This document shows positions 23,196-58,131 of a stretch of DNA of 64,000 nucleotides, in pieces. Within the stretch, counting starts at the first letter, position 1; each line of letters begins with the position of its first letter. A model generated the notes under the pieces. It was given only the letters and a program-made list of their open reading frames with translations. It was not told the DNA's origin and made no database searches. This DNA is from a bacterium (GTDB lineage: Bacteria; Patescibacteriota; Patescibacteriia; UBA1558; S5-K13). The position numbers and the translations under genes were made by a program. The stretch covers positions 37,217 to 101,216 of the forward strand of contig JAKPTO010000026.1 of assembly GCA_029555085.1 (NCBI GenBank), given 5' to 3'.

Positions 23196-23272
23196 GGAGC
23201 GGTAGTTCAGTTGGTTAGAACGCCTGCCTGTCACGCAGGAGGTCGAGGGTTCGAGTCCCTTCCGTTCCGCCA
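23196..23272 (+). tRNA. tRNA-Asp (anticodon GUC), CCA encoded
   Basis: Manual fold: GGAGCGG acceptor, anticodon stem-loop CCTGC-CTGTCAC-GCAGG, T-arm GAGGG-TTCGAGT-CCCTT, 77 nt. Confidence 0.85.
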
Positions 23273-26048: not shown

Positions 26049-26049
26049 T

Positions 26050-27303: not shown

Positions 27304-28582
27304 TATGATAAGAATAAAAAATTCAATAAAACTCGCTATTAATTCAATGAAAACAAATAAGGGAAGAACTCTTCTTACTATTTTAGGTATGGTAATTGGT
27401 GTAATGAGTATTGTTGTGGTTTTTTCAGCTGGAGAGGGATTAAAGAAATTAATCATAAAACAAATTGAATCCTTCGGTACTGATATTATTGAAATTGAAA
27501 CAAGAATCCCTGTGGGGAAAAATAAAATGGGCAATGAATCACATGAATCAGCCATGAGTATGGCTCAAGGAGTTCGAATAACAACACTAACATTAAAAGA
27601 TGTAGAAGATATAAAAAAAATACCAAATATAGATGGCGGTTATGGTGCGTTAATGGGGCAAGAACTCGCAACCTATGGTAGTAAAAGAAAAAAAGCGTCT
27701 CTTTTTGGAGTTAGTGCTGATTTTATAAACATTGATAAAAGTGAAATAAATAAAGGTAGATTTTTTACCAATGCAGAAGATGAGTCGCTCACAAAGGTTG
27801 TAGTACTAGGCGCTGGAATAAAAGAAGATTTGTTTGGTGACTCAGATGCAATAGGAAATTATATAAATTTAGGAAAATCAAAATACAGAGTAATTGGAAT
27901 AATGAAAGAAAAAGGAGCTGCCATGGGAATGGACTTTAACAGATATATATATCTTCCCGTGCAAACTCTTCAAAAAAAAATCATGGGGATAGATTATTTA
28001 ATGTATACTATATATAAATTAAAAAACTCTGAAATCACAGATGAAACAGTAAAAGAAGTAAAAATTATCTTAAGAGAAAATCATGATATAAATAATCCCG
28101 ACGATATAGTGGGTGTAGATGATTTTACTGTTGTAACAATGGAAGAAATGATGAAAACCGTCAATAGTATTACAAAATATGTAACCGGCTTACTTCTTGC
28201 AATAGTAATAGTTTCTCTTGTGGTTGGTGGTGTGGGGATTATGAATATAATGTATGTAATAATAAGCGAAAGGACATTTGAAATTGGCCTTAGAAAAGCA
28301 CTAGGAGCAAAAAATAAAGATATTATGTGGCAATTTCTCATGGAAGCAATAATAATATCAATTCTAGGGGCAATTTTAGGTATTATTCTAGGTATTCTAC
28401 TATCACTACTTATAACTTTTGCTGCAAATGCTTATGGTCTTTCCTCGAGTTTTAAAATACCCATTTACGCTCTTTTCATATCTCTAATATTTGCGGTTTC
28501 CACTGGTCTTTTATTTGGTGTTTTTCCTGCAAAAAAAGCTGCGGAACTTAATCCAATAACAGCTCTTAGAAATAAAAATTAA
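27296..28582 (+). CDS. ABC transporter permease, FtsX/MacB family (second paralogue)
   Basis: Same architecture as the preceding gene, with an 8-nt overlap. Confidence 0.8.
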   Translation: MNNMIRIKNSIKLAINSMKTNKGRTLLTILGMVIGVMSIVVVFSAGEGLKKLIIKQIESFGTDIIEIETRIPVGKNKMGNESHESAMSMAQGVRITTLTLKDVEDIKKIPNIDGGYGALMGQELATYGSKRKKASLFGVSADFINIDKSEINKGRFFTNAEDESLTKVVVLGAGIKEDLFGDSDAIGNYINLGKSKYRVIGIMKEKGAAMGMDFNRYIYLPVQTLQKKIMGIDYLMYTIYKLKNSEITDETVKEVKIILRENHDINNPDDIVGVDDFTVVTMEEMMKTVNSITKYVTGLLLAIVIVSLVVGGVGIMNIMYVIISERTFEIGLRKALGAKNKDIMWQFLMEAIIISILGAILGIILGILLSLLITFAANAYGLSSSFKIPIYALFISLIFAVSTGLLFGVFPAKKAAELNPITALRNKN

Positions 28583-42495: not shown

Positions 42496-44511
<2,016 letters not shown>

Positions 44512-45348
44512 CTAATTAAAATCTTTTAACAAAGATTCTTCAGAAAATATAACATAATCAAATAACCCAGATAAAGGATCTTCTCTTCTTAAACTAACAG
44601 ACAATGCTTGTCTATTAGCATTTTCTATATCTCCTCCGGGATATTGACCAATTGTTTTTATTACATATATATTTTTAAACTTCAGAGAATTATTATCTCC
44701 ATCAAATGCTTGAATTTTTAAATCATGAATATCACAAAATAAAGCTTTGACTCTAAATTGATAAATCTTATTTGGATCTAAACTAGAACCGCCAATTTCA
44801 GTTATTGAATCACTTGACTCGTTTAGTAAAGATTTATAAACATGTTGCGATTCGCCCCCCGCGCTCCAAACAATACTTCCTCCGGACTTCCATTCATTTA
44901 CTGTAAGTTCTATCCAAGAACTATTTGGCGACTCTTCGGTGGAACAATTATCCTCCCAAGAAATTGAAAGATAAGATAGATTACTCGCCTCCCCTAAATC
45001 CTCTAAATTGTAAAGGTCGAATTGAAAAAATTGATTTTTTTTGAGACCTATATTTATACTTTGAATATCGTCATCTACTGTTCTAATTATGGAACTATCA
45101 AAGCCATTAAAAAAATAACTGTCGGTATTTAATTTTTCTGGAATTATGTTTTTTTGCCTTAAATAGTATATTGCTTGTTCATTGCCTGATTCTGCAGCAT
45201 AAAAAGCAATATTTGCATTATCAACGCTTTTAGATTGCTTAATTTGCCTTAAAGAGAATCTTGATACATAAAGAACACTTACCAAAATAGAAGTCATAAT
45301 TAAAAACGCTAATAAAAGAGCTGATCCATTTTTAACTTTAATTGTCAT
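44512..45348 (-). CDS. Pilin-like / minor pseudopilin protein
   Basis: N-terminal hydrophobic anchor; last gene of the pseudopilin operon. Confidence 0.4.
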   Translation of the reverse strand: MTIKVKNGSALLLAFLIMTSILVSVLYVSRFSLRQIKQSKSVDNANIAFYAAESGNEQAIYYLRQKNIIPEKLNTDSYFFNGFDSSIIRTVDDDIQSINIGLKKNQFFQFDLYNLEDLGEASNLSYLSISWEDNCSTEESPNSSWIELTVNEWKSGGSIVWSAGGESQHVYKSLLNESSDSITEIGGSSLDPNKIYQFRVKALFCDIHDLKIQAFDGDNNSLKFKNIYVIKTIGQYPGGDIENANRQALSVSLRREDPLSGLFDYVIFSEESLLKDFN

Positions 45349-45350
45349 AA

Positions 45351-45911
45351 TTATTTTATATAATTTCTTGCACTTACTGTTGTTTGTAATAAAATTTCTG
45401 CACCATCTCTATTATCAACAAATGTCATAACAATTGTTACAAGTGTTTGCTTGTTTAAATCCCCAGCAAGCTTTTCTGTTGATATAGTTGGGCTAATATA
45501 AAAATACATATCTTTCACGCTAACACTATTTCCAGTTACATCACTCCAACCAGAATCATTATATTTAACTTGCAGAAAAGTATTGTTTTTTCCTCCAACT
45601 AATTTTACTTGTTTTCGAAAAAAAATCTTATTACCGGAATTATCTTCTAGAGCCAACTCTGTTATTGGGTTTTTTACTGTAAAATCTGGATAATAAGAAT
45701 AATCAACATTACCCAATCTTACTTCTCTAGATATATAATCCATTGCGAACCTCATCTCATTTTGTACCCTTTGCATTGCTATAATCTTTGTATTTGCCTT
45801 CATTGTTAATATGTACACACCAATACAAATCGTTGAAACAATACTAAAAATAGCAGTCGCGACAATCATTTCAAGTAATGTAAATCCTGGTTTTTTATAT
45901 ATTTTTTCCAT
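45351..45911 (-). CDS. Type IV pilin/pseudopilin with prepilin-type N-terminal cleavage/methylation motif
   Basis: KKPGFTLLEMIVATAIFSIV. Confidence 0.7.
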   Translation of the reverse strand: MEKIYKKPGFTLLEMIVATAIFSIVSTICIGVYILTMKANTKIIAMQRVQNEMRFAMDYISREVRLGNVDYSYYPDFTVKNPITELALEDNSGNKIFFRKQVKLVGGKNNTFLQVKYNDSGWSDVTGNSVSVKDMYFYISPTISTEKLAGDLNKQTLVTIVMTFVDNRDGAEILLQTTVSARNYIK

Positions 45912-45922
45912 AAATTAAAATA

Positions 45923-46582
45923 CTATTTCCAATTATATATCCTTTCTTGTATCTGGGTTGTTTTGATCGAACCTCCATCGTTCCAACCAACTAAAGAAGT
46001 TACCTGTAGGCCTATAAAATTTGTAGGATCTTCGCATTCTGATTCTGGTGATGTATTAATTATTTCATCTTCCCATTCATCATTATAACAAATCGCATCT
46101 ATATATATTATTCTATAAAAATTAGCATCCGACAATTGATAAGAATCTAATCCCTCCATAGAATCTTTATGAACATATATTTTTTGATTTGGCGATTCTT
46201 CTGGCCAAGCTAAGAACAATTTACATTGTCCAGTCTCAAGACATTTATCCCAAGGTATGCTAATGTATTCTAAAATATATCCATCTTGATCTTCCCTGGG
46301 ATACTTATTATCTAATATAAATGTTCTTGAATCTCCATCAATTGCTAAATCCGGTAATAATCCACTGCTCCACGCTAATCCATCAATCCAATTTGAATCT
46401 CTTATATTTCTAACAACTTCCACTCCTTCTCTGGCTAAGTTCGTGGCTTTAAGCATATTATGATTGAAACGCTCAACCCTAAGATTCGCCACAACTAAAT
46501 TCATAATAGATAAAATACCTACCACTGCTATATAAATAGCTATTACTACCTCCAATATTCCCTGTGCTTTACTTTTTTTCAT
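45923..46582 (-). CDS. Type IV pseudopilin-like protein
   Basis: KAQGILEVVIAIYIAVVGIL, a variant class III signal. Confidence 0.55.
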   Translation of the reverse strand: MKKSKAQGILEVVIAIYIAVVGILSIMNLVVANLRVERFNHNMLKATNLAREGVEVVRNIRDSNWIDGLAWSSGLLPDLAIDGDSRTFILDNKYPREDQDGYILEYISIPWDKCLETGQCKLFLAWPEESPNQKIYVHKDSMEGLDSYQLSDANFYRIIYIDAICYNDEWEDEIINTSPESECEDPTNFIGLQVTSLVGWNDGGSIKTTQIQERIYNWK

Positions 46583-46584
46583 AT

Positions 46585-47166
46585 TTAATTATTTAAAAAT
46601 TCAGACCATGTTTTACCAGAACCTGGAGTAATGTTTATTACCCATTTCCCCGGTGCCTTAGTACTGCCTAAAAATATCTGACAAGACAAAACATTTTCAT
46701 CTTTATTTTCATCTATAATAATAGACATTAAACCTTTTGGCATTGAAAAATTAATATCTAATGATTCTAATTCTTTTTCTTCGTATCCAAGTTCTGATTC
46801 ATCTTTAATTTTACACCGTAACTGATCAAAATAAAACTGACTTTCTAAAATATTTTCTGAATAAATTAAATTTTCATTATAAAAACCATAAACACCAATA
46901 TCTGCGTAAATATTATATGAATATGAACCATTTACATCCTTTAAAAAAATTATTCCATAACCATTAATAGGTACTGTATTTTGAATTTTTTGACCTGTTA
47001 GTGAAAGATTTTTTGTAAATCCTATTGAATCTTCTATGTCATAAGCTGTTAAACGAAATTCATTTATTCTTCTTGTATATCCATAATCAAGAATAACAAC
47101 ACTTAAGAGAATTACAAATATACCAATCGCAACTACAACCTCTATTATTGTAAAAGCTTTTTTCAT
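46585..47166 (-). CDS. Type IV pilin/pseudopilin with prepilin-type N-terminal motif
   Basis: MKKAFTIIEVVVAIGIFVILL. Confidence 0.7.
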   Translation of the reverse strand: MKKAFTIIEVVVAIGIFVILLSVVILDYGYTRRINEFRLTAYDIEDSIGFTKNLSLTGQKIQNTVPINGYGIIFLKDVNGSYSYNIYADIGVYGFYNENLIYSENILESQFYFDQLRCKIKDESELGYEEKELESLDINFSMPKGLMSIIIDENKDENVLSCQIFLGSTKAPGKWVINITPGSGKTWSEFLNN

Positions 47167-47960
47167 ATAATTAATAAATTAATATACCAATTCAATAATT
47201 GCTCTCCGAAAAGAAAAGAAATAAACATTGCAAAAGAAATAAATGGTCCAAGAGGAATTTTTAATTTAGTTTTTTCTTTTTTAGATTTAGATAATAAAAG
47301 AAAAATACCAATTATTGCTCCGGAAAAGTAAGTAATCAATAACGCCACAATTGTAATTTTAAATCCCAAAAGCGCACCCATAAAAACCCCGAGCAATATG
47401 TCTCCACTACCAAGCCATTTTCCTTTTGAAATAACATATTGTATACCAAAAAAAATTACTCCGAGAACAATCCCATAAAAAATATTTAAAATATTATTTT
47501 TCATTATTAAATTAAAAATAATAGATAAAACTATCCCCAAATAAACTATAAAATCCACTATTAAATAGTATTTCAAATCATAAATAAATATAAAAGACAA
47601 AATAAATACAAGTATTAAATAAAATATAAAGCTAATAATTAATTGACCATGAAGCCAAAGTCCAGAAACAAAGAAAAACCAATATCCGAATGAAAATAAA
47701 ATTCCTAGAATTACCTCAACAAAAAAATTCTCAAATTGAATCTTTGATTTACAATATCTACATTTCCCAAGTAAAACAATGTAAGAAAAAACTGGAATTA
47801 AATCTAAAATCCCCAATGTTTTTTTACAATTAAGACAATACGATCTATTAAGTATTGATTTTTCTTCATTTATTCGATAAATCAAGCAATCTAAAAAACT
47901 ACCAAAAACAGCCCCTAAAATAAAAAATAGTATATAGAACATACCATTATTATAGCACAA
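47163..47960 (-). CDS. Prepilin peptidase (A24 family)
   Basis: N-terminal zinc-binding CxxC...CxxC (CLNCKK...CRYCKS) and a polytopic membrane domain with GSGD. Confidence 0.8.
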   Translation of the reverse strand: MCYNNGMFYILFFILGAVFGSFLDCLIYRINEEKSILNRSYCLNCKKTLGILDLIPVFSYIVLLGKCRYCKSKIQFENFFVEVILGILFSFGYWFFFVSGLWLHGQLIISFIFYLILVFILSFIFIYDLKYYLIVDFIVYLGIVLSIIFNLIMKNNILNIFYGIVLGVIFFGIQYVISKGKWLGSGDILLGVFMGALLGFKITIVALLITYFSGAIIGIFLLLSKSKKEKTKLKIPLGPFISFAMFISFLFGEQLLNWYINLLII

Positions 47961-47996: not shown

Positions 47997-48614
47997 TTAC
48001 TTCAAAATTGTACCTGTTTTTATATACCAGATATAAATATCTAACTCTCCCTGACTCATATCCAATTTTTTGCATATTTTATGCATTTTTTTCTCTATTT
48101 CAATATATCTCTTTGGTGTTAATGTTTTATATTCAGCTATTATTCCGTTATCAATCAAACTACTAATAATATGCCTATCTAAAATAGCATAATCAAAAAA
48201 ACCAACATTTCTTAAAAAATGCGACGATTCCTTCATCCCAAGACCTTTTATATTTTTCAAAAGCCACATTCTTTTATCATTTTCTTCTAATAAAATATCT
48301 TTGATGTTTTTATACTTTCTTGCCAAAACAATACGATTCGCGCGTTGAGGCCAAAATCTATGACCTGATTTTTTCAAAAATCTTGCTAATTTTTCTTCAT
48401 TCCAATTTAAAAAACCATTCGGAGTTAATTTTTTTTGAATTTCAATTGACTCTTTTGCTTTCCAATTTGAAGTTAATAAACAATAACAAAGTTCAAAAAA
48501 CCATTCATTGTTTGATTTTTTGTTTAAAATTAAAAAATCTTTTAATCTTCTATCAATTTTATTTTTGATTTTTGATTTTCTTATTTCTTGAATTTTGTTT
48601 ATTAATTTTTTCAT
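47997..48614 (-). CDS. ogg: 8-oxoguanine DNA glycosylase/AP lyase, Ogg2-type (HhH-GPD)
   Basis: GLGMKESSHFLRNVGFFDYAILDRHI carries the HhH-GPD catalytic Lys and Asp. The start is moved to the internal MKKLINK (48614), which shortens the overlap with nth to about 56 nt. Confidence 0.55.
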   Translation of the reverse strand: MKKLINKIQEIRKSKIKNKIDRRLKDFLILNKKSNNEWFFELCYCLLTSNWKAKESIEIQKKLTPNGFLNWNEEKLARFLKKSGHRFWPQRANRIVLARKYKNIKDILLEENDKRMWLLKNIKGLGMKESSHFLRNVGFFDYAILDRHIISSLIDNGIIAEYKTLTPKRYIEIEKKMHKICKKLDMSQGELDIYIWYIKTGTILK

Positions 48615-49269
48615 AATGTAAACAATAATTTTTAATTTTACAAATATTACATTTTGGACCAATTGGCCTACAAATATTTTGACCAAACAATACTAATACA
48701 AAATTTATTTTTTTCCAGTACAACTTATCTAAATTTTTTCTTAAAAACATTTCGGTTTCATACGGAGTCCTTGTGTTTAAATATCCAATTCTATTTAATA
48801 TTCTATGAACATGCGTATCCACACAAATTGCTGGTTTTTTTAAAACTGTAGAAATATATAAATTTGCTGTTTTTCTCCCAATTCCTGGAAGTTTTATAAG
48901 TTCATCGATAGTTTCCGGAATTTTAGAATTGAAATCCTTATTTAAAACAAAACATAATTTTTTTAAATTTTTTGCTTTTGTTTTATAAAAACCAACTGGA
49001 TAAATCAATTTTTGTATTTGTAGATTTGTTAATTTTTGCAAATCTTTACAGTTGCTTACTTTTTCAAATAATCTTAATGATGACTCAAGAGTTGTTTTGT
49101 CTTTTGTTCGTGACGATAAAATTATTGAAATTAAAATCTGAAAATTGTTAAATTTTTTAGAATACAAAAAATCAACAGCAGGAAGTTCAAATTCACTAAC
49201 CTGCTGTGACAATAAATCAAGTATTTTTTCTATTTTTACTTTGATTTCCATAATCCATGAAGATTGCAA
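48559..49269 (-). CDS. nth: Endonuclease III
   Basis: HhH LPGIGRKTANLY, VDTHVHRILNRIG and a [4Fe-4S] ligand set C-x6-C-x2-C-x5-C (CRPIGPKCNICKIKNYC). Confidence 0.9.
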   Translation of the reverse strand: MQSSWIMEIKVKIEKILDLLSQQVSEFELPAVDFLYSKKFNNFQILISIILSSRTKDKTTLESSLRLFEKVSNCKDLQKLTNLQIQKLIYPVGFYKTKAKNLKKLCFVLNKDFNSKIPETIDELIKLPGIGRKTANLYISTVLKKPAICVDTHVHRILNRIGYLNTRTPYETEMFLRKNLDKLYWKKINFVLVLFGQNICRPIGPKCNICKIKNYCLHYEKINKQNSRNKKIKNQK

Positions 49270-49637
49270 TATGCTCTAACCGTAACAATATTTGCTTTAG
49301 CGTAGAAGTCTGCTTCTGGTTTATCTCCTGGATTTAAAAATTTCTTCCCAGACTTTCCATCATCAGTATTAATTTCAATCCACTCTATAAAATGAGATTC
49401 TTCCATTGGATGTTCAGTTGATCCAACCTTAACTTTGTAACCAAATTCTGTTTTTTCTATAATTGGAACATGTTTTTCATTACCCTGATCTTGTGATTTT
49501 TCTCCTTCTAATCTCATAGCCGTCCCACAACAAACAAGTGATTCTGCTCCAATGTTTAAAACCTCAATAACATTGCCACAAATATCACATTTATAAATCT
49601 GTTTTTTCTTTGTCATAATATTTAAATTAATAATCAA
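49236..49637 (-). CDS. dfx: Desulfoferrodoxin (two-iron superoxide reductase)
   Basis: N-terminal desulforedoxin-like YKCDICGNVIEV...CCGTAM; C-terminal centre II His/Cys ligands. The true start is probably the second Met (MTKKKQIYKC). Confidence 0.8.
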   Translation of the reverse strand: MIINLNIMTKKKQIYKCDICGNVIEVLNIGAESLVCCGTAMRLEGEKSQDQGNEKHVPIIEKTEFGYKVKVGSTEHPMEESHFIEWIEINTDDGKSGKKFLNPGDKPEADFYAKANIVTVRAYCNLHGLWKSK

Positions 49638-49692
49638 TTATAAAATTTTAAATACTAAGTAACCAAAATGGAAATTTGATTATTAGTTGTTG

Positions 49693-50262
49693 TTACTTGG
49701 ACATTGTTTCAAAATATGCTTTTGGGTGTTTACATGCTGGACATTCTTCTGGGGCATTTTCTGATTCATGAACATAACCACAATTTCTACAAACCCAATA
49801 AACTTTTTCTGATCTTACAAAAGTAGTATTGTTTTCTAAATGTTCTAAAAATTTCTTATACTTTTCTTCATGATGTCGTTCTGCCTCGGCAATACTCCTA
49901 AGTCTAATTGCAATATCTTTTAAACCCTCGCGTTCTGCTATATCAGCAAATTCTGGATACATTGATGTATGTTCATAATTTTCTCCAGCAATTGCTGCTT
50001 TTAAATTCGCAATTGTATCACCTAAAACAGTAGGACATTCTGAATCAACTTTTATAGCTTCTCCACTATTTTGAGTTAATTCGTTTATAAGTTTCATTAG
50101 AACTTTTGCATGTTCTTTTTCTTGATCTGCTGTTAGTGTAAAGTTAGCTGAAATCTCTTCAAATCCCTCTTTTTTAGCAACAGAAGCATAATAAGTATAT
50201 CTATTTCTAGCTTGTGATTCACCTATAAAAGCTTTTGCTAAATTTTTAATTGTTTCTTGCAT
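49693..50262 (-). CDS. rbr: Rubrerythrin
   Basis: Di-iron ferritin-like domain with a C-terminal rubredoxin-like CRNCGY...CPACKHP. Confidence 0.9.
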   Translation of the reverse strand: MQETIKNLAKAFIGESQARNRYTYYASVAKKEGFEEISANFTLTADQEKEHAKVLMKLINELTQNSGEAIKVDSECPTVLGDTIANLKAAIAGENYEHTSMYPEFADIAEREGLKDIAIRLRSIAEAERHHEEKYKKFLEHLENNTTFVRSEKVYWVCRNCGYVHESENAPEECPACKHPKAYFETMSK

Positions 50263-50339
50263 AATTTTTTAATTAATTATTAATATTTTAAGTATATCAA
50301 ATTCAAACAGCATTATAAAGCGTTGTTAATAGCGTATAA

Positions 50340-51554
50340 TTATTGATAATATTTATTTCTATTATAGTTAAATTCAAAAGATTTATTAAAATCAGATACT
50401 AATGATGGAATATTTGAAACCATAATTGACTCATCGTTTCTAAAAAATCCCCCAGAACTCCAATTATTTGTTCCAAAAAGAGCTATTTTATCATCAAAAA
50501 TCATTAGATGATGGTGTAAAAAAGAATTTAAATTTTGTTCATTAAATATTTGTTTTAATTCTTTATTTCTATTTTCATCAGTCAAAATTTCTAAATTATC
50601 TAAATGATTTTGCTTTTTCTTTTTTATCATAAAATTAAATACGGAACCATCTACTGAAAAATTATAATCATCTGTTAAAATTTTTACACTAATCTTTTTT
50701 GATGCTAATAATAAATCTTCTGCAATATCTCTATCTGTCATAAGCCAAATCATGGATTTTATGTTGTCCTTTGAATTCTCAATCAGATTCAACATTCTAT
50801 CCTTGATACCAGTATTTATTCTTTGTGGAGTAAACCAAATTTCTAAAAATCCTTCTGGATATTTTATAAGAGCAGCGAATGGATTATATTCTTTTGATAA
50901 TTTATCTCTTCCGCGTAAACCAGAAAATATTCTATCAAATTCCTCTCCATATATTTCAATAATTTCTGGCCTGTCAGTTTCTAAAATAAAACTCGGATCA
51001 TATTTATCTTGAATATAAGTAAAATTATAAGAACTAAAGAGTAATTTCTGGGTCTCCTCGCCTCTATCAATTATTATAAATTTATGATGCATGTATTCTG
51101 ATTTTTGAGTATTAATGTTCCTAGACAAAATATCTTTTCTTGTAATATTATCTCGCTTTTCTGAAAACAATCTATTATTTATATCTCTATGCACATCACT
51201 AAAAACTAATTTTATATTCACTCCTCTGTCTGATGCTTTATAAATTGCATCTCTTATCCTTTCGTCGTTCATAGAATAAATAGCCACTTCAATGGTTTTT
51301 TGTGCAGAATTTATAGAATCAATAACAATTTTTGACAAAATGTTTTGTCCAAATTCATCATTAAAATGTAAACTCCCTGAAAATGGTTCTGTGATTTCTA
51401 TGATTTTCGCAGGCCTAAATTCTACTATTCTTCTCTTCGAAAAAGATGTAAAAAATAAGTATATAAAAATTCCCATTGTAATTAATAAAAGAATTGGAAT
51501 TGCCCAAAAAATAAATGTCTTATGTGATTTTTCTAATTTCATCACCCAGCTCAT
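50340..51554 (-). CDS. Membrane-anchored phospholipase D-superfamily (HKD motif) protein; the second HKD motif is degenerate (HxHxxxxD)
   Basis: N-terminal TM segment; HHKFIIIDRG...FSSYNFT is a canonical HxKxxxxD..SxN motif. The second copy HHHLMIFDDKIALFGTNNWS lacks the Lys. Its start overlaps the upstream ABC-like gene by 35 nt. Confidence 0.55.
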   Translation of the reverse strand: MSWVMKLEKSHKTFIFWAIPILLLITMGIFIYLFFTSFSKRRIVEFRPAKIIEITEPFSGSLHFNDEFGQNILSKIVIDSINSAQKTIEVAIYSMNDERIRDAIYKASDRGVNIKLVFSDVHRDINNRLFSEKRDNITRKDILSRNINTQKSEYMHHKFIIIDRGEETQKLLFSSYNFTYIQDKYDPSFILETDRPEIIEIYGEEFDRIFSGLRGRDKLSKEYNPFAALIKYPEGFLEIWFTPQRINTGIKDRMLNLIENSKDNIKSMIWLMTDRDIAEDLLLASKKISVKILTDDYNFSVDGSVFNFMIKKKKQNHLDNLEILTDENRNKELKQIFNEQNLNSFLHHHLMIFDDKIALFGTNNWSSGGFFRNDESIMVSNIPSLVSDFNKSFEFNYNRNKYYQ

Positions 51555-53235
51555 ATTTTTGCTGATAAGTTAAATAATTATTATTTTCTTTTGAAAATAC
51601 TATAATAATAGAATCTTCAAGTTTTTCACTTAATATTTCTATTATTTTTATAATATCATTATAATTCAAATCAATCCAAATATTGTCAATAATAATAAGT
51701 TGTTTTTTATTAACTATGCAATGGAGCGCTTGAAGAGCAAAGCATGAAACATTATTATTAAAAGCCAACACACAAGAAGAATTAACATTATTTATAGAAG
51801 ATATTTTTGATGCAATAAATTGATTTTCAGATATTACCTTGATCACATTTTCAATTTCAGAAGAATTAATTTGTTCTTTATCTTTCCCTAAAATAAACTC
51901 CATCAAACTTTTTTCTGAAAATATTTTAGGATCGAAAAAATATGCGCCACAGAATAATTTTTGCCATATTGGATAATCATATCTTTTATTGTCTATTTTC
52001 ACCTTCATTGCCTTGGGATTATAAATACGCATTCCTGCAAAAATTTTAGCCAAACTTGTTTTTCCTGAAAAATTCTCTCCAAAAAATAAAATTCTTTCTG
52101 ATTTTTTAAAATGAAAATCTAGATTTCTGAAATATTTACCATCTTTAAATAATTTTGTTTTTTTTGCGTGAAACAATATTTCATTATGAATTTTTAAAGT
52201 ATTTTTTCTACGCAAAACTGCTCCTTTTTGCAATACTGTTAAAAACAAACCCAATCTTGCTGGAAAAAAATATAAACCAACTCTTAGCGCTTGATTAAGT
52301 GTTCTTGGAAAATAGAACATTAAAAATAAAAATAAAAATCTATTATCTCTACCAAGTAAATTTATAAAAGAAAAAAACTCATTTGTAAAAAAATTGCTTA
52401 AAATTACAATTATCAAAACTATCACAAATACAATTTTTGCGCTTATTCCAATCCAAAGATTTCTTCTAATGCGAAAAAAAGAATCTATATTAACAAGACG
52501 ATCAAACTTTTGTAGCACACTATCTTCATTATTAAAATTTTTATTAAAATATTTTTCTGATAAGCTAATATCGATATGTTTTATTATTTGTGAATAAAAA
52601 GTGACTTCTTGCGAAATATATTTTTTTGCAACATAATAAGCTATTATTCCTATAAGAATAGAAAGTGCCACGAAAAAAACGAAAACAATAAATAAATTTA
52701 ATCCTATTAAATATGCAATGAGCATTGCCACAGAAAAATATATGAACCATCTAATTATTCCAAAAAAAACAATTGATACACCCATTGAAACAAGCGATAA
52801 TTGATAAGAAATTTTTGCTATTAACCTACCCTGCCTTTCGTTGTTCATTGTTTCAACGGGTCTATCAATAAATGATTTAAATATTCTGCGCCTAATATCA
52901 TTTGCAAATAATACCACAATAGTTTTTTCTTGTTTTATAGAAAAAAATGAACTTATGATAAACAACAATATAAAAATAGCAAAAAATTGCCAAAAAAATG
53001 GGTCTAAAATACTATTTAGCTGAGATAATTTATTTCTACTAAATACAATAAGAAACGCTTCTATTACACAGGAAACAAAAATTAAAAGAACAAGACGCAA
53101 AATATAAAATTTATATTTTTTAAAAAAATCTCGTAAATACCCGTAATGTAAAAACGATAATTTTATATCTTTGTATTTATTCCTTGTTTTTCTAATTTCT
53201 TTTATTAATCTAATTTGTTCTTTTATTTCTTTCAT
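51520..53235 (-). CDS. ABC-exporter-like membrane protein (TMD-NBD fusion) with degenerate ATPase motifs
   Basis: About 330-aa polytopic N-terminal domain, then Walker A GENFSGKTS, a degenerate signature VSCFALQAL (versus LSGGQ) and Walker B LIIIDN (no catalytic Glu). It overlaps the RT stop by 26 nt. Confidence 0.5.
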   Translation of the reverse strand: MKEIKEQIRLIKEIRKTRNKYKDIKLSFLHYGYLRDFFKKYKFYILRLVLLIFVSCVIEAFLIVFSRNKLSQLNSILDPFFWQFFAIFILLFIISSFFSIKQEKTIVVLFANDIRRRIFKSFIDRPVETMNNERQGRLIAKISYQLSLVSMGVSIVFFGIIRWFIYFSVAMLIAYLIGLNLFIVFVFFVALSILIGIIAYYVAKKYISQEVTFYSQIIKHIDISLSEKYFNKNFNNEDSVLQKFDRLVNIDSFFRIRRNLWIGISAKIVFVIVLIIVILSNFFTNEFFSFINLLGRDNRFLFLFLMFYFPRTLNQALRVGLYFFPARLGLFLTVLQKGAVLRRKNTLKIHNEILFHAKKTKLFKDGKYFRNLDFHFKKSERILFFGENFSGKTSLAKIFAGMRIYNPKAMKVKIDNKRYDYPIWQKLFCGAYFFDPKIFSEKSLMEFILGKDKEQINSSEIENVIKVISENQFIASKISSINNVNSSCVLAFNNNVSCFALQALHCIVNKKQLIIIDNIWIDLNYNDIIKIIEILSEKLEDSIIIVFSKENNNYLTYQQKYELGDEIRKIT

Positions 53236-54427
53236 AATGAAAGTCTAAATAAAAATTATATAATGATTTTATTTTTAAATATTCTATCTCTTTTCTTAAC
53301 AACCTTCTGTTGCGTGGTGAATATTTACCAAATATAAAATCTGTTAAAATACGGAAAAAATCTTCTGATAATTTTTTTATTTGTTCTGAGTTATTGATTT
53401 GTGGTTTATCTTTTATAATTTTTTGAAATTGGTAGTTAAAATTTTTTTCTGGATGTCCCATAATCCTTCTCAGTAAATACTTTTTTTTACTTAAATTATA
53501 ATTTTTATATTTTAAAATACTTTTCCAACCAGCAATAATACGCTTAATATATGATTTTTCTAAACTAATAATTCCTGAATTAAAGCAGTAGCCTAAAAAA
53601 GAAAAATTTTCTTTTGCATCACCAATAAATAATTTGCTATTATTTATTGTTAAATTTCTAATATTCAAATCTTTGATAATTTCTAATTTTAATTTATTTA
53701 GCTTGTCTATGTTATTATCAAAAATACCTATATCATCTCCTATTCTTATATAAAATGAACATTGTTTTTGATATTTATGATCAAGGTCTGTTAAATATAA
53801 ATTATTAAAAAGTGCTATTAGTGGAACACCCTGGACAAGACCTATATCAGGTGCTTCTATCTTACCATTTTTATATATTTTATTAAAAATAAATAATTTT
53901 AATAAATCTAATATTTTTCTATCTTCAAAAATGTTTTCCAGTTGTGAGTATAAAACATTCTTATCAATCAAGTCAGAATAGTTTTCCAAATCTAACACTA
54001 ATGCTTTGTCTGTAGAAAAATTTTTCCTATATCTATGGCAAAAATTTTTTGCTGCAAAATATGGTGGCTTGCCCGGCCTATATGAAAACAATCTTTTTGA
54101 AAAAACTTTTTCAAATTCTGGTAATAAAACTCTATAAATTGCCTGTGCTTTTATACGATCTTTTATATTATAAATAAAAATATCCCTGAATTTCTCGGGA
54201 TTATTTTTTTTAGGAATTGAAACAATAAGTGCTGGCTCAATTTCCCTATTTTCAACTAATTCTTTTTGACAAATATCTATAAGCTCCTTTGAATTTAAAT
54301 CTCTGTCTTGTATTGAAATATTATCCAAACCGTGATATCTAAAACTTTTACTATCTATAGAAAATTTTTCCACTATATCTAAATAAGCAGATCGAATATT
54401 ATCATAAGATACAATTTTATTAAACAT
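53210..54427 (-). CDS. Stand-alone reverse transcriptase (retron/defence-associated RT-like), IGDD active-site variant
   Basis: RT motifs 0-7: SYDNIRSAYLDI; IPKKNNPEKFRDIF...IKDRIKAQAIYRVLLPEFE; FSYRPGK; ALVLDLENYSDLID; GLVQGVPLIALFNNLYLTDLD; YIRIGDDIGIF; FLGYCF. There is no endonuclease or maturase domain and no room for group II intron RNA. Confidence 0.75.
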   Translation of the reverse strand: MFNKIVSYDNIRSAYLDIVEKFSIDSKSFRYHGLDNISIQDRDLNSKELIDICQKELVENREIEPALIVSIPKKNNPEKFRDIFIYNIKDRIKAQAIYRVLLPEFEKVFSKRLFSYRPGKPPYFAAKNFCHRYRKNFSTDKALVLDLENYSDLIDKNVLYSQLENIFEDRKILDLLKLFIFNKIYKNGKIEAPDIGLVQGVPLIALFNNLYLTDLDHKYQKQCSFYIRIGDDIGIFDNNIDKLNKLKLEIIKDLNIRNLTINNSKLFIGDAKENFSFLGYCFNSGIISLEKSYIKRIIAGWKSILKYKNYNLSKKKYLLRRIMGHPEKNFNYQFQKIIKDKPQINNSEQIKKLSEDFFRILTDFIFGKYSPRNRRLLRKEIEYLKIKSLYNFYLDFHYERNKRTN

Positions 54428-54433
54428 ATTTTT

Positions 54434-54615
54434 AAAAATCGTCCTCAGGATATATAATAAAAATACTATATATTAATAAATCTAATGAAGACCCCCGTCC
54501 ACAAACTGGTTACAACCGTTTCCATTTTAATTAATTCGATATTAACGAATATAAAAAATTAAAACTAAAACGATTATTAATATCTCCTAAAATAGGAGTT
54601 TTGAGGATGATTTTT
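54434..54615 (-). other. Noncoding region bounded by a 14-bp inverted repeat, directly upstream of the RT gene; candidate msr/msd-like ncRNA locus
   Basis: AAAAATCGTCCTCA (54434-54447) and TGAGGATGATTTTT (54602-54615) are reverse complements with one mismatch, 154 nt apart. An internal hairpin CTCCT-AAAAT-AGGAG lies at 54584-54598. The GC-rich segment gacccccgtccacaaactggttacaaccgtttcc is also present. The proximal arm lies 10 nt from the RT start codon. Confidence 0.35.
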
Positions 54616-54694
54616 AAAAGTACATAATATATTATAGCATGTCAATAAAGCGTATGTAAAGAATAAATATATAATTTTGTGATATAATTAATCT

Positions 54695-56758
54695 ATGAAT
54701 CTAGATACAACACTTGATAAAATCTACGGAATAGGTCCAACAATCTATAAAAAATTACAAAAAATCGGATTAAATACAATATCTGATGCTATTTTTTATT
54801 ATCCATTTAGATATGAAGATTTTTCCCATTTAAAACAAATAAATGAGCTTGTAAATGAAGAATCTGCCACTATAAAAGGAAAAATCATACTTTTAAACAA
54901 TAAGAGATCTCCTAGAAAAAAAATGAATATCACTGAAATGCTTTTAGGAGATGATTCCGGACAAATTCAGATAATTTGGTTTAATCAACCATATATTAAA
55001 AATATATTACAAATTGGAGATGAGATATTTGTTTCAGGTGTTGTAAAAAAATCACTTTTGGGATTATCACTTATAAATCCAAATTATGAAAAAACTAATA
55101 GAGACACATCACACACTGCAAGAATTATTCCTATATATCCATCAACAGAGCATTTATCACAGAAACAACTTAGATACATAATAAAACAATCCTTGTCTTG
55201 TATAAATGAATTACATGAAAGGTTACCAAGTCAAATTATTAAAAAAGAAAATTTAATAGAAATAAAAGAGGCAATAAAACAAATTCACTTTCCAGATAAT
55301 TATAAAAAATTAGATCTTGCAAAAAAAAGATTATCATTTGATGAAATATTTTTATTATCATGTTTATCAAAATTTATTAAAAAACAAAATATTGAATTAA
55401 GCGCTCCTCAAATTAATTTCAAGGAAAAACAGATAAAAGATTTAGTAAAAAAAATTCCATTTAAATTAACAGAAGATCAAAGAAAGGCAACCTGGCAAAT
55501 TCTAAAAGATATTAGCCACAAAATTCCAATGAATAGACTTCTTGAAGGCGATGTAGGAAGTGGAAAGACAATTGTTTCTTTTATCTGCGCTTACAATGTA
55601 ATCTTGAACAAATATCAAGCAATTTTAATGTCTCCTACTCAGATTTTAACAAAACAACACTTTGAAAATGCTGTAAAATTTTTCAAGGACTATGATATTA
55701 ATATTTTACTTTTTACAAACTCTGACAGATTATTATTTAATGGAAAAAAACAATTAGCACAAAAATTAACAAAAAAAGAAATTAATAAGTTTGTCAAAAA
55801 ATCTGATTTTATAATAGGAACTCATTCTTTAATTCAGCAAAATGTAGAATTCAAAAATATTGGGCTCATAATAATTGACGAGCAACACAGATTCGGAGTT
55901 AAGCAGCGTCAAGAATTAACAAAAAAATCAGATATTAGTCCACACTTTTTATCAATGACTGCAACTCCAATTCCAAGATCTCTAGCGCTTACAATTTATG
56001 GAGATTTAGATATTTCAAAAATTTTACAAAAACCAGCAAACAGAAAAAAAATTATTACAAAATTTGTATATTCTCGCAACAGAACAAAAGCTTATGAATT
56101 TATTTATAACCAGATCCAAAACGGCAGACAAGTTTTTGTTGTGTGTCCACTTATAAATGAATCGGATAAATTAGGAGTAAAATCCGTAATGAGTGAATAT
56201 GAAAAATTAAGCAACGACATTTTTCCAAATTTAAAAATAGAATATTTACATGGAAAAATGAAAGAAACAGAAAAGCAAAAAATTCTAAAAAGTTTTTCTG
56301 ACAATGAAACAAAAATTTTAGTATCAACTTCTGTTATTGAGGTTGGAATTGATTTTCCAAATGTAACAATAATGATAATTGAAGGTGCTGATAGATTTGG
56401 ATTGGCATCACTCCATCAATTTCGAGGTCGTGTTGGTCGCGGAGAACATCAATCATTTTGCTTTTTATTTTCTGAATCAAACTCAGAAAAATCCCGTAAA
56501 CGTTTAGAAATATTAACAAAAACAGATAATGGATTTGAACTCGCAGAATATGATTTAAAATTTCGTGGAAGTGGAGATTTGTATGGAATAAAACAATCAG
56601 GATTTATGAATGGAGTGAAAATTGCAGATTTATCAGATTTAGAATTAATCAAAAAATGCAATATTTGGGCTCAATATATTTTTGAAAAAGGTCTTGAAAA
56701 ATTCCCTCAAATAAAAAAAGAGATAGAATTACTATCTTCTGATATTCACTTGGAATAA
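54695..56758 (+). CDS. recG: ATP-dependent DNA helicase RecG
   Basis: N-terminal wedge/OB domain; Walker A GDVGSGKT; DEQH box IIDEQHRFG; TATPIPRSL; QFRGRVGRG. Confidence 0.9.
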   Translation: MNLDTTLDKIYGIGPTIYKKLQKIGLNTISDAIFYYPFRYEDFSHLKQINELVNEESATIKGKIILLNNKRSPRKKMNITEMLLGDDSGQIQIIWFNQPYIKNILQIGDEIFVSGVVKKSLLGLSLINPNYEKTNRDTSHTARIIPIYPSTEHLSQKQLRYIIKQSLSCINELHERLPSQIIKKENLIEIKEAIKQIHFPDNYKKLDLAKKRLSFDEIFLLSCLSKFIKKQNIELSAPQINFKEKQIKDLVKKIPFKLTEDQRKATWQILKDISHKIPMNRLLEGDVGSGKTIVSFICAYNVILNKYQAILMSPTQILTKQHFENAVKFFKDYDINILLFTNSDRLLFNGKKQLAQKLTKKEINKFVKKSDFIIGTHSLIQQNVEFKNIGLIIIDEQHRFGVKQRQELTKKSDISPHFLSMTATPIPRSLALTIYGDLDISKILQKPANRKKIITKFVYSRNRTKAYEFIYNQIQNGRQVFVVCPLINESDKLGVKSVMSEYEKLSNDIFPNLKIEYLHGKMKETEKQKILKSFSDNETKILVSTSVIEVGIDFPNVTIMIIEGADRFGLASLHQFRGRVGRGEHQSFCFLFSESNSEKSRKRLEILTKTDNGFELAEYDLKFRGSGDLYGIKQSGFMNGVKIADLSDLELIKKCNIWAQYIFEKGLEKFPQIKKEIELLSSDIHLE

Positions 56759-56793: not shown

Positions 56794-58131
56794 TTAAATT
56801 AAAAACTTTTTAAGTTCTTTTATATTTTTGATACAATTCAAATTAATTCCTTTTACATCAACTGCTTTTTCAAAACTTGGAATAATTATATTTTTAAATC
56901 CTAAATTCACTGCTTCTTTTATTCTCTCTTTTGTTTTTGGTATTTGTCTAATTTCTCCATTGAGTCCTACTTCACCAAAAAATACTGAATTTTCCATAAT
57001 TTTTTTATTTTCATATGATGAATAAATTGCCACCGCAACCGCTAAATCAAGCGCGCGGTCCGAAACTTTGAAGCCACCAGTTAAATTAATATAAACATCA
57101 TATAAATTTAATTTTAAATCTAATTTTGATTGAAGTACTGCTATAAGTAATTCTAATCTTTTCTGATCATAACCAGATACGGTTCTTTTTGGATAACCAA
57201 AATTTGTTTTTGATACAAGTGCTTGAAGTTCTAACATTAAAACCTGATTTCCTTCTATAATAGAAGTAATTGCCGTGCCTGAACTTTCTGGATTAATTGA
57301 TGACAAATAAATTTTTGATGGATTTATCACTTCTTTAAATCCTGATTTTGTCATCTCTAAAATTACCGACTCATCAGTTGCTCCAAATCTATTTTTAACA
57401 GATTTCAAAATTCTAAATCTATGCAATCTATCACCTTCAAGACTCAGTACGCAATCAACTAAATGTTCCATTGTTTTAGGTCCCGCTAAATCACCTGATT
57501 TATTTACATGACTTATGATGAGAGTTGCAATATTAAATTTTCTTGCAATTTCCATAATTTTTACAGTACAAGCCCTTACTTGCGCGACTCCACCTGGATC
57601 GCTTTCAATCTCACTCGTGTAAAGTGTTTGAATTGAATCTATAATTAAAAAATCTGGTTTGATTTTTAATATTCCAGCTAGAATTATTTCTATATTATTT
57701 TCTGCCAAAAACTTTACTACTTTACTATCAACTTCCAATCTATCAAAACGAGATTTTACTGAACTTGCACTCTCTTCTCCTGAAACATATAAAGTATTTA
57801 AACTCTTGTTTATAATTTGAGAAATAATTGTAGATTTTCCAATCCCCGGCTCACCACCAAGTAAAACCAAAGAAGAAGGAACTAATCCTCCTCCGACTAC
57901 TTTATCAAAATAAGTTAATCCTGTTTTTATTTTTTTAACTTGTTCATTTTTTATTTTTGACAAATCTATGAAATCAACTTTTAAATCTTTTAAATTTTCT
58001 GTTTTGTCTTTTCTTTCGTCTTCGATAAATGTTTCTTTTTCTAATGTTCCCCAAGCACCACACTCAATACACTTTCCAGCCCATTTCGGAAATTGTGCTC
58101 CACATTTTGAACATGAATATATTGTTTTCAT
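56794..58131 (-). CDS. radA: DNA repair protein RadA (Sms)
   Basis: N-terminal zinc finger CSKCGAQFPKWAGKCIECGAWG, Walker A GGEPGIGKST, KNRFG motif, Lon-like C-terminal domain. Confidence 0.9.
   Translation of the reverse strand: MKTIYSCSKCGAQFPKWAGKCIECGAWGTLEKETFIEDERKDKTENLKDLKVDFIDLSKIKNEQVKKIKTGLTYFDKVVGGGLVPSSLVLLGGEPGIGKSTIISQIINKSLNTLYVSGEESASSVKSRFDRLEVDSKVVKFLAENNIEIILAGILKIKPDFLIIDSIQTLYTSEIESDPGGVAQVRACTVKIMEIARKFNIATLIISHVNKSGDLAGPKTMEHLVDCVLSLEGDRLHRFRILKSVKNRFGATDESVILEMTKSGFKEVINPSKIYLSSINPESSGTAITSIIEGNQVLMLELQALVSKTNFGYPKRTVSGYDQKRLELLIAVLQSKLDLKLNLYDVYINLTGGFKVSDRALDLAVAVAIYSSYENKKIMENSVFFGEVGLNGEIRQIPKTKERIKEAVNLGFKNIIIPSFEKAVDVKGINLNCIKNIKELKKFLI

What the first reader, a model, noticed from the sequence alone, without database searches (positions are those of the whole stretch)
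51520..53235. ABC-exporter-like protein with a catalytically degenerate nucleotide-binding domain, co-operonic with the RT
A type-I exporter-like six-TM domain is fused to an NBD. The NBD retains Walker A (GENFSGKTS) but has VSCFALQAL in place of LSGGQ and LIIIDN in place of the Walker B hhhhDE. ATP hydrolysis is therefore unlikely. A pseudo-ATPase membrane protein whose start overlaps the RT stop suggests an effector or sensor role rather than housekeeping transport.
Basis: seen in the sequence. Interest (0 to 1): 0.5.

Follow-up and report, generated by a model that had tools for sequence, protein, structure and literature searches.

The report
Non-catalytic ABC protein in RT operon
A membrane protein shaped like an ABC exporter, but lacking the residues needed to burn ATP, always sits next to a reverse transcriptase gene that carries its own structured RNA, nearly always with a membrane-anchored PLD enzyme gene as well, in a group of ultra-small bacteria; I found no description of this membrane-linked reverse-transcriptase system in the papers I searched.

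Summary
ORF 51520-53235 (-) encodes a 571-aa half-transporter with the six-helix type I exporter fold plus a nucleotide-binding domain (NBD). It keeps the Walker A lysine and the Walker B aspartate. It lacks the catalytic Glu (Asn instead), the LSGGQ signature, the Q-loop Gln and the H-loop His.

This is a family trait, not an error. All 95 homologues share the changes, and the NBD is under purifying selection (dN/dS 0.08-0.28). A canonical ABC ATPase in the same window is intact.

The gene never occurs alone. [quoted passage not shown] In all but one it precedes a membrane-anchored two-HKD PLD protein, usually with overlapping reading frames. The three proteins co-evolve (r = 0.94).

It shows strong covariation, has no Rfam match, and is tandemly duplicated in some genomes.

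The cassette is restricted to Patescibacteria, is absent from viral contigs, and is not described in the RT and retron papers I searched.

Best reading: a non-hydrolysing ABC-fold membrane adaptor or transducer in a new RT-ncRNA-effector system. Its function is inferred, not shown.

The parts
54631..54660 (-). Promoter-like site TTTACA-18 nt-TATAAT with an extended -10 TG, about 10 nt upstream of the ncRNA
   Evidence: It is the best-scoring site (11 of 12) in 50200-54760. Similar TTGACT/TATAAT boxes are visible upstream in L003 and L009. This is a consensus match only, not shown to be functional.
54428..54621 (-). Structured ncRNA or leader (about 195 nt). It has a closing stem P1, hairpin P2, a long stem P3 whose tip loop forms a pseudoknot with the P2-P3 junction, a variable hairpin P4, the conserved CUCRUUGGAUUUAAU segment, and hairpin P5. 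It ends at the RT start codon.
   Evidence: MFE -53.9 kcal/mol, z = -6.4. Covariance model R1 matches it at 127 bits and finds 35 sites in related loci. 95.4% of cells are paired versus about 42% when partners are slid; 35 of 40 pairs show compensatory change, including 5 of 7 pseudoknot pairs. No Rfam family matches.
53210..54427 (-). [quoted passage not shown] Motif C is R-I-G-D-D (family consensus RVGDD). There is no intron RNA and no recognised maturase domain.
   Evidence: RVT_1 E 3e-13. Group II RT/maturase model 125 bits, cut-off 300. PADLOC generic RT 6.8e-39, UG26 2e-31. Nearest solved structures: GsI-IIC RT 4e-17, other group II RTs, Cas6-RT-Cas1. 150 homologues conserve the catalytic residues.
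51520..53235 (-). The finding: ABC type I exporter-fold half-transporter with a non-catalytic NBD, 571 aa
52237..53112 (-). Six-helix transmembrane domain (aa 42-333). The most conserved stretches are in the cytoplasmic loops.
   Evidence: Helices 42-70, 78-123, 132-177, 181-220, 237-283 and 299-333 in the model. Invariant E103, N112, R115, T212, E237, D251, R255, R258 and G320.
51523..52203 (-). NBD-like domain (aa 345-571). Walker A is at 52057-52080, the signature-position segment at 51712-51756, and Walker B with Asn at 51682-51699.
   Evidence: Motif census on 95 sequences. Coordinates verified by translation. dN/dS 0.08-0.28.
50340..51554 (-). Membrane-anchored PLD-superfamily protein, 404 aa. 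It has an N-terminal TM helix (51447-51512) and two HKD lobes: HKD1 MHHKFIIID at 51018-51092, and HKD2 FLHHHLMIFD...GTNNW at 50460-50522, where His replaces the Lys.
   Evidence: PLDc_2 twice, E 3.8e-31. NucT, DrmC and DpdK models below their cut-offs. By sequence the nearest solved proteins are NucT, Zucchini and Nuc. AlphaFold2 pLDDT 93. Best folds are a bacterial PLD, PLD3/PLD4 and F13. Charge bias around the TM helix is 5.0 versus 2.2 K+R.

Best explanation
The protein is a non-hydrolysing ABC-fold membrane subunit (a pseudo-ATPase) of a four-part module: promoter-proximal structured ncRNA, group-II-like RT, ABC-like protein, and a membrane-anchored PLD enzyme.

Shown:
- It has the exporter fold.
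- It lacks every residue that ABC ATPases need for catalysis and for ATP-sandwich dimerisation. Most members keep the P-loop lysine and the Walker B aspartate.
- The altered residues are themselves conserved and under purifying selection.
- The gene is always next to the RT, usually with overlapping frames, and co-evolves with RT and PLD.

Inferred:
- The three proteins form one membrane complex.
- The ABC-like dimer does not pump. It acts as an adaptor or conformational transducer that tethers the cytoplasmic RT-ncRNA particle, or senses its nucleotide or cDNA product through the remodelled NBD surface.
- It couples this to the PLD enzyme, whose catalytic domain is predicted to lie on the outer face of the membrane.
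- At the system level it most likely works like retron or DRT-type RT-ncRNA-effector immune modules, here built at the envelope.
For: Fold and motifs:
- establish the fold and motif positions.
- Census of 95 members: K392 in 94, D517 in 95; N518 in 92 and Ser in 3, never Glu. LSGGQ is replaced by the conserved N-P-L-S-A-F-A-L-H-A-L-H-C-L. There is no Q-loop Gln and no H-loop His. W520 and D522 are conserved.
- dN/dS of the NBD part is 0.08-0.28 in 10 pairs.
- The canonical NBD in the same window is intact.

A discrete family: 89 cluster representatives at E <= 1e-30 among 1.84 billion proteins; ordinary exporters appear only at about 60 bits.

Synteny:
- RT, ABC-like and PLD lie in that order in every locus with enough flank.
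- This includes very divergent L051, where Walker A and the Walker B Asp are gone but RT RVGDD and the HKD motifs remain. L053 has the ABC-like and PLD genes, with the upstream gene cut by the contig end.
- Reading frames overlap at both junctions in nearly all loci.
- Pairwise identity matrices of the three proteins correlate at r = 0.94, Mantel p = 0.001.
- L052 keeps RT plus ABC-like but has a small DUF2975 membrane protein in place of PLD. This suggests RT and ABC-like are the core and the third gene is exchangeable.

The ncRNA is real.

Precedent for the RT + ABC-type ATPase + nuclease layout: type I-A retrons (PMC7736814).
Against: - No experiment exists. Loss of ATPase activity, complex formation and the role of the ncRNA are all inferred.
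- Flanking genes are housekeeping-like with no defence-island or mobile-element signature. Part of the synteny is vertically conserved: rubrerythrin and desulfoferrodoxin lie downstream in both the window and L005. The cassette is absent from IMG/VR. These weaken the immune reading.
- An extracytoplasmic PLD domain is an odd place for an anti-phage nuclease effector.
- The retained P-loop in most members would also fit a real nucleotide-dependent activity.
Confidence: 0.5

Rival explanations
1. It is a conduit. The exporter-fold dimer passes nucleic acid across the membrane without ATP hydrolysis. Either RT-made single-stranded cDNA goes outward, perhaps driven by polymerisation, to be processed by the outer-face PLD exonuclease. 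Or fragments produced outside by the PLD nuclease come inward for salvage or uptake.
For: - The PLD is predicted N-in/C-out.
- Its best two-lobed structural matches include PLD3/PLD4. From my own knowledge these are type II membrane 5' exonucleases acting on single-stranded nucleic acid.
- By sequence the nearest solved proteins are the nucleases NucT, Zucchini and Nuc.
- Type IV pilus or competence genes lie near some cassettes. In L011 two pilin genes sit between the ncRNA and the RT. PilM, T2SSE and T2SSF are directly upstream in L007. DprA and ComM are next to L008.
Against: - No ABC exporter is known to pass nucleic acid (my own knowledge).
- Without the signature motif the ATP-driven alternating-access cycle cannot run.
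- Pilus genes are near only 6-8 of 40 loci, and four of those share one ancestral arrangement.
- The most conserved parts of the TMD are cytoplasmic loops, not the cavity.
Confidence: 0.2
2. It is a lipid-handling pair. The PLD is a phospholipid-modifying enzyme and the MsbA-like protein presents or flips lipid. The RT and RNA only regulate the pair or are hitch-hiking.
For: - The closest ABC structures are lipid flippases, MsbA and PglK.
- PLD1/2 and PssA are also structural matches of the PLD protein.
- Source annotations call the PLD 'cardiolipin synthase-like'.
- From my own knowledge, Patescibacteria lack de novo lipid synthesis.
Against: - The tightest linkage is RT with ABC-like: overlapping frames in nearly all loci, and retained in L052 where PLD is absent.
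- Sequence-level matches of the PLD are to nucleases; the cardiolipin synthase model scores only E 0.022.
- An ATP-independent flippase has no need for a conserved remodelled NBD.
Confidence: 0.1
3. It is the degenerate half of an ordinary heterodimeric ABC exporter whose competent partner is encoded elsewhere.
For: Heterodimeric exporters with one degenerate site (TM287/288, TmrAB, BmrCD) are among the best structural matches.
Against: - No second half-transporter gene is adjacent in any of about 50 loci.
- This subunit has lost both its own Walker B Glu and H-loop and its own signature. Both composite sites of any dimer would therefore be crippled, not just one (the logic of ABC site composition is established knowledge).
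- Some members have no Walker A at all.
Confidence: 0.04
4. It is a decaying pseudogene, a mis-called ORF, or an artefact of AT-rich composition.
For: Pfam scores are barely above the cut-offs.
Against: - Full-length ORFs of 555-588 aa in 69 homologues, with conserved N-termini.
- dN/dS 0.07-0.18 over the full length.
- A confident exporter-fold model.
- A canonical ABC ATPase in the same window is intact.
Confidence: 0.01

Closest known systems
Type I (type IV fold) ABC exporters: MsbA, PglK, PCAT1, HlyB
   Same: Half-transporter layout: N-terminal elbow helix, six TM helices with long cytoplasmic extensions, and a C-terminal RecA-like NBD. It has a P-loop and a Walker B Asp, and an ICL1 motif related to the exporter coupling-helix region.
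   Different: No catalytic Glu, signature, Q-loop Gln or H-loop His in any member. Only 12-18% identity. Never found in a transport operon and always found with an RT.
Heterodimeric exporters with one degenerate site (TM287/288, TmrAB, BmrCD), and the ABC proteins used as channel or regulator (CFTR, SUR)
   Same: Catalytic residues are lost in an exporter-fold NBD. There is precedent that ABC proteins can act as switches rather than pumps (my own knowledge; structural hits).
   Different: In those proteins one consensus site remains and ATP binding still drives dimerisation. Here both halves of both sites are degenerate in a single gene product.
Type I-A retrons (for example Retron-Eco7/Ec78): RT + msr/msd ncRNA + ABC-type ATPase (PtuA-like) + HNH nuclease
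   Same: The parts list matches: ncRNA next to the RT, an ABC-class P-loop protein, and a nuclease-family protein in one operon (PMC7736814).
   Different: - The retron ATPase is soluble and has Walker A and B; the effector is HNH.
- The RT here is group-II-like, not of the retron clade: retron RT models score E 1e-5 against 1e-39.
- The RNA has no conserved branching G after the closing stem.
Group-II-intron-like (G2L) and CRISPR-associated RT lineages; UG26/UG17 of the UG/Abi family
   Same: The best RT matches by profile and by solved structures. These are free-standing RTs without an intron RNA (PMC8632793).
   Different: None of the three RT and retron papers I searched reports an ABC exporter-like or PLD partner or this ncRNA. 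Matches cover the RT core only. Motif C is RVGDD rather than YxDD.
PLD3/PLD4 and Nuc/NucT/Zucchini (PLD-superfamily nucleases)
   Same: Two-lobed HKD fold with an N-terminal membrane anchor, as in PLD3/4. Sequence similarity to NucT, Zucchini and Nuc.
   Different: Only 11-14% identity to PLD3/4. The second HKD has His in place of Lys. The substrate is unknown.
FtsEX, LolCDE and MacB mechanotransmitters
   Same: These are ABC systems that do not transport across the bilayer but control extracytoplasmic enzymes. That is the functional logic I propose here (my own knowledge).
   Different: They have a different fold (type VII) and need ATP hydrolysis. The resemblance is only by analogy.

Membership tests
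ABC transporter, type I exporter half-transporter | Six-helix exporter TMD (Pfam ABC_membrane, exporter fold) | tested here: met
   31 bits against a cut-off of 28. Foldseek to MsbA, TM287/288 and PglK gives E about 1e-13 and TM about 0.6.
ABC transporter, type I exporter half-transporter | NBD with a Walker A P-loop, GxxGxGK[ST] | tested here: met
   GENFSGKT in the window. K in 94 of 95 and T/S in 92 of 95 members. Lost in the divergent branches P0265, P0268, P0274, P0280 and P0281.
ABC transporter, type I exporter half-transporter | Walker B hhhhDE with a catalytic Glu | tested here: not met
   LIIIDN in the window. Asp in 95 of 95; the next residue is Asn in 92 and Ser in 3, never Glu.
ABC transporter, type I exporter half-transporter | ABC signature LSGGQ | tested here: not met
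   Replaced by NNVSCFALQALHC; absent in all 95 members.
ABC transporter, type I exporter half-transporter | Q-loop Gln and H-loop His | tested here: not met
   YFFDP and IIVFS at those positions.
ABC transporter, type I exporter half-transporter | ATP hydrolysis coupled to substrate transport | not testable with these tools
   Needs biochemistry.
Heterodimeric ABC exporter with one degenerate site | A second, competent half-transporter gene in the operon | tested here: not met
   None found in about 50 loci.
Heterodimeric ABC exporter with one degenerate site | Degeneracy confined to the motifs of one composite site | tested here: not met
   Both the Walker B/H-loop set and the signature are lost in the same chain.
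Retron | RT of the retron clade | tested here: not met
   Retron RT models score E 8e-6 and 3e-5, against 6.8e-39 for the generic RT model. NCBIfam's only match is the group II RT/maturase model, and the closest solved structure is a group II intron RT.
Retron | msr/msd RNA with terminal inverted repeats and a conserved branching G | tested here: inconclusive
   A closing stem like a1/a2 is present. The conserved sequence after it is CAAAAC, with no conserved G. No msDNA data exist.
Mobile group II intron | Intron RNA domains flanking the ORF, and an RT/maturase at the full-length cut-off | tested here: not met
   No group II RNA family is found in the window. TIGR04416 scores 125 bits against a cut-off of 300. 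The next gene overlaps the RT stop.
Diversity-generating retroelement | Template repeat and variable repeat pair | tested here: not met
   Only short AT-rich chance repeats in 50300-54700.
UG/Abi defence RTs (UG26, UG17/DRT10) | Full-length match to a class profile and the class-specific partner | tested here: inconclusive
   UG26 matches profile positions 39-288 of 398 only, at 107 bits. The reported UG26 partner is a Vsr-like endonuclease, not ABC or PLD (PMC9226505). No phylogeny was built.
PLD superfamily (neighbouring gene) | Two HxKxxxxD motifs on a two-lobed fold | tested here: met
   HKD1 is canonical. HKD2 is HxHxxxxD...GTxNW. The fold is confirmed. The Lys-to-His change makes this a variant.

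The most novel reading that the evidence does not exclude
The cassette is a new kind of reverse-transcriptase machine that works across the membrane. The RT, programmed by its pseudoknotted RNA, docks on the dead NBDs. It feeds or signals its DNA product through the exporter-fold dimer to a PLD3-like exonuclease on the cell surface. This would be an RT-driven envelope system for nucleic-acid export, uptake or surface defence, with no counterpart among retrons, DRTs, DGRs or CRISPR-associated RTs.
Probability: 0.15. Interest if true: 0.9.

Novelty: new variant of a known kind. Interest (0 to 1): 0.7.

Why it matters
- RT-ncRNA-effector modules (retrons, DRTs) are an active field in bacterial immunity and a source of genome-engineering tools. 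All characterised ones come from cultivable phyla, and they use soluble or small membrane effectors.
- This would add a module restricted to Patescibacteria with a group-II-like RT, a compact pseudoknotted RNA and an ABC exporter scaffold that has given up ATP hydrolysis.
- I know of no other bacterial case in which an entire exporter-fold NBD has been repurposed under selection.
- It would also give a testable handle on how these ultra-small, host-dependent bacteria deal with nucleic acids at their envelope.

Tried and rejected
- DGR: rejected. No template/variable repeat pair, and the RT motif 4 region is of the group II type.
- Mobile group II intron: rejected. No intron RNA, and there is no room for one.
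- Known RNA family for the leader: none, even at E <= 10.
- Phage origin: no relatives in IMG/VR.
- Defence-island context: none found among 129 nearest neighbours of 36 loci.
- General linkage to type IV pili: only 6-8 of 40 loci, partly one shared synteny, so I do not claim it.
- A match of the variable hairpin elsewhere in the window: none.
- Literature: searches for an RT + ABC + PLD system in Patescibacteria found nothing. Full-text term searches of three RT and retron classification papers found no ABC-exporter or PLD partner. The retron classification paper reports only soluble ABC ATPases and nothing on PLD.
- P0278, a distant DNxW-type ABC protein, lies at a contig start and has no PLD downstream. 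I left it outside the family.
Full report
**1. The observation.**
The window is AT-rich (about 27% GC). Homologue names place it in the Patescibacteria, near Falkowbacteria. ORF 51520-53235 (-) encodes 571 aa.

- Pfam finds ABC_membrane and a partial ABC_tran just above their cut-offs. NCBIfam finds only weak, far-below-cut-off similarity to MsbA-type exporters.
- A profile of 26 family members matches MsbA, TM287/288, PglK, PCAT1 and HlyB in the PDB over both domains.
- An AlphaFold2 model (pLDDT 80.9) has six long TM helices plus an alpha/beta domain. It superposes on type I exporters over the full length.
They are GENFSGKT (Walker A), NNVSCFALQAL at the signature position, and LIIIDN at Walker B. 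In addition there is no Q-loop Gln and no H-loop His.
- The MacB-type ATPase at 25335-26048 in the same window has every motif intact. Base composition is therefore not the cause.

**2. It is a family trait under selection.**
- Sixty-nine homologues of 555-588 aa were found, and every one that carries an informative organism name is from Patescibacteria, apart from one labelled Sphaerochaetaceae.
- An exhaustive profile search of 1.84 billion cluster representatives gives 89 at E <= 1e-30. Ordinary exporters appear only near 60 bits.
- Motif counts in 95 unique sequences:

| Position | State in the family |
|---|---|
| Walker A Lys | 94 of 95 |
| Walker B Asp | 95 of 95 |
| Residue after the Asp | Asn 92, Ser 3, never Glu |
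| Signature | conserved N-P-L-S-A-F-A-L-H-A-L-H-C-L |
| W520 | 92 of 95 |
| D522 | 92 of 95 |

- dN/dS is 0.07-0.18 over the full length and 0.08-0.28 for the NBD part.
- Deeper branches have lost the Walker A too. In L051 both Walker motifs are gone, while the neighbouring RT keeps RVGDD and the PLD keeps its HKD motifs.
- The domain is therefore retained for something other than ATP hydrolysis, and in some lineages for something other than nucleotide binding.

**3. The genetic context.**
- The window and the first nine fetched loci, including RT homologues down to about 40% identity, show RT (about 400 aa), then the ABC-like gene (about 570 aa), then PLD (about 400 aa). All 40 species-representative genome loci show the same order. 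The only incomplete cases are contigs cut short.
- The reading frames overlap at both junctions in almost every locus.
- Pairwise identities of the three proteins correlate at r = 0.94. The ABC-like protein evolves fastest (mean identity 39%).
- Two genomes carry two divergent copies: L012/L029 and L014/L044.
- One GC-rich variant (L052) keeps RT plus ABC-like but has a small DUF2975 membrane protein instead of PLD.
- Flanking genes are diverse and housekeeping-like.
- No relative is found in viral contigs.

**4. A fourth component.**
- The 270-nt gap upstream of the RT holds the best promoter-like site of the region.
- It also holds a conserved RNA element. The window copy folds with z = -6.4 and has no Rfam match.
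- A covariance model built from 14 loci finds 35 sites.
- On that alignment 95.4% of cells pair, against about 42% in slid controls. Thirty-five of 40 pairs show compensatory change, and 0 of 500 shuffles reach the observed values.
- A pseudoknot between the P2-P3 junction and the P3 tip loop is supported by five co-varying versions: AUAUUA/UAAUAU, AUAUCA/UGAUAU, AUGCCG/CGGCAU, GUAUUA/UAAUAC and GCAUUA/UAAUGC.
- Several loci carry two or three tandem copies. These differ mainly in the apical part of hairpin P4 and keep the closing stem through compensatory changes.
- In L011 two pilin genes lie between the RNA and the RT.
- Tandem and displaced copies argue for an RNA that acts with the RT, not a purely cis-acting translational leader. 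However, in the Falkowbacteria group the 3' strand of P1 looks like the RT's Shine-Dalgarno sequence and the 5' strand like an anti-SD mimic. That is my own reading of the alignment.

**5. The partners.**
- The RT is group-II-intron-like by every comparison. It has no intron RNA.
- Its motif C is R-V/I-G-D-D and the steric-gate Tyr is conserved.
- The PLD protein has an N-terminal TM helix with a strong positive charge bias on the N-terminal side (5.0 against 2.2 K+R over 42 sequences). By the positive-inside rule the catalytic domain is predicted to lie outside the cytoplasm. This is an inference, and the window's own protein is ambiguous on this measure.
- By sequence the PLD resembles the nucleases NucT, Zucchini and Nuc.
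- By fold (pLDDT 93) it resembles a bacterial PLD and PLD3/PLD4, and also F13, PLD1/2 and PssA. A nuclease is favoured, but a lipid enzyme is not excluded.

**6. How it most likely works.**
Shown:
- exporter fold;
- catalytic motifs absent but the replacement residues conserved;
- obligate genetic coupling to the RT, and usually to PLD;
- a real structured RNA.

Inferred:
- The three proteins form one membrane complex.
- The ABC-like dimer cannot run an ATP-driven cycle, because without the signature motif no ATP sandwich can form.
- It therefore serves as an adaptor or transducer between the cytoplasmic RT-RNA particle and the membrane-anchored PLD.
- The layout mirrors type I-A retrons, which combine an RT, an ncRNA, an ABC-type ATPase and an HNH nuclease (PMC7736814). 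A conflict or immune role is therefore the leading system-level guess.
- The lack of defence-island context and the predicted outer-face PLD keep a nucleic-acid trafficking role alive.

**7. Novelty.**
No paper in the searchable library links an RT to an ABC exporter-like protein or a PLD in these bacteria. Term searches of the RT and retron classification papers found no such partner. I file it as a new variant of the RT-ncRNA-effector kind. The membership tests show that it is neither a functional ABC transporter in the defining sense nor a retron, DGR or group II intron.

Noticed in passing
window 54428-54621 (-): A conserved structured ncRNA of about 195 nt with a pseudoknot lies directly upstream of the RT start. 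It has no Rfam match and strong covariation across 35 sites in related loci.
   Followed up: yes
L005 4326-4515 and 4629-4811; L027 2440-2609 and 2615-2811; L009 5602-5778 and 5787-6003; L042 923-1194 and 1229-1511; L008 5137-5349, 5413-5682 and 5759-5955: Two or three tandem copies of the ncRNA lie upstream of one RT. In L005 the copies are 90% identical apart from a completely different apical hairpin P4, and they keep the closing stem by compensatory changes.
   Followed up: partly
L011 612-2808: The ncRNA (612-795) is separated from the RT (2809) by two same-strand type IV pilin genes (878-1873 and 1901-2800). One of them has a weak ComP_DUS match.
   Followed up: partly
window 53729-53752 (-), RT motif C: The RT family has R-V/I-G-D-D instead of the usual YxDD, which is a GDD-type motif C. 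One homologue (P0151) carries a precomputed Bunyavirus RdRp Pfam hit. The steric-gate Tyr is conserved.
   Followed up: partly
window 50460-50522 (-), PLD second HKD: The second HKD motif has His in place of the Lys (FLHxHxxxxD...GTxNW) throughout the family. The protein's N-terminal anchor and two-lobed fold resemble the PLD3/PLD4 exonucleases.
   Followed up: partly
L052 3794-7090: A GC-rich (60%) variant of the cassette has the RT (YRRVGDD) and an ABC-like protein without Walker A, followed by a 150-aa DUF2975 membrane protein instead of PLD.
   Followed up: partly
L051 about 2500-2760: A perfect 46-nt inverted repeat (ACTTCCGCTCGAGCGACTCTGAAAGAGTCAGCTCGGGCTCGGAAGT and its reverse complement), with arms about 150 nt apart, lies in the 520-nt gap upstream of the divergent RT. 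Model R1 does not match there.
   Followed up: no
window about 54440-54450 and 54603-54615 (-): The 5' strand of ncRNA stem P1 (AAUCAUCCUCA; AAUCACCUCC in L005) resembles the 3' end of 16S rRNA, the anti-SD. The 3' strand looks like an extended SD for the RT. This does not hold in the L006 and L009 groups.
   Followed up: partly
window 23650-28582 (+): A canonical MacAB-like system: an HlyD-family protein, an intact ABC ATPase and two MacB/FtsX permeases. I used it as an internal control.
   Followed up: yes
window 44512-47960 (-): A prepilin peptidase-like ORF and four short ORFs with hydrophobic pilin-like N-termini lie 2.4 kb downstream of the cassette (my own reading of the translations, not profile-searched). 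Further genes I read as DNA-repair genes lie around it, from similarity I recognised rather than from profile searches: LigA 42496-44490, Nth-like 48559-49269, RecG 54695-56758, RadA 56794-58131.
   Followed up: partly
window 49236-50262 (-) and L005 11337-12019: Rubrerythrin and desulfoferrodoxin genes lie downstream of the cassette in both the window and L005 (in L005 with Fpg, ribosomal protein L33 and an AI-2E transporter gene in between). This indicates vertically conserved synteny in one sub-lineage.
   Followed up: no
window 14813-20356 (-) and 33635-38758 (-): Two giant ORFs of 1847 and 1707 aa. The first coincides with a local GC rise to 0.37-0.38. Neither was analysed.
   Followed up: no
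window 21522-21912 (+) and 23196-23269 (+): A tmRNA gene and a tRNA gene. These are the only Rfam gathering-threshold matches in the window.
   Followed up: no
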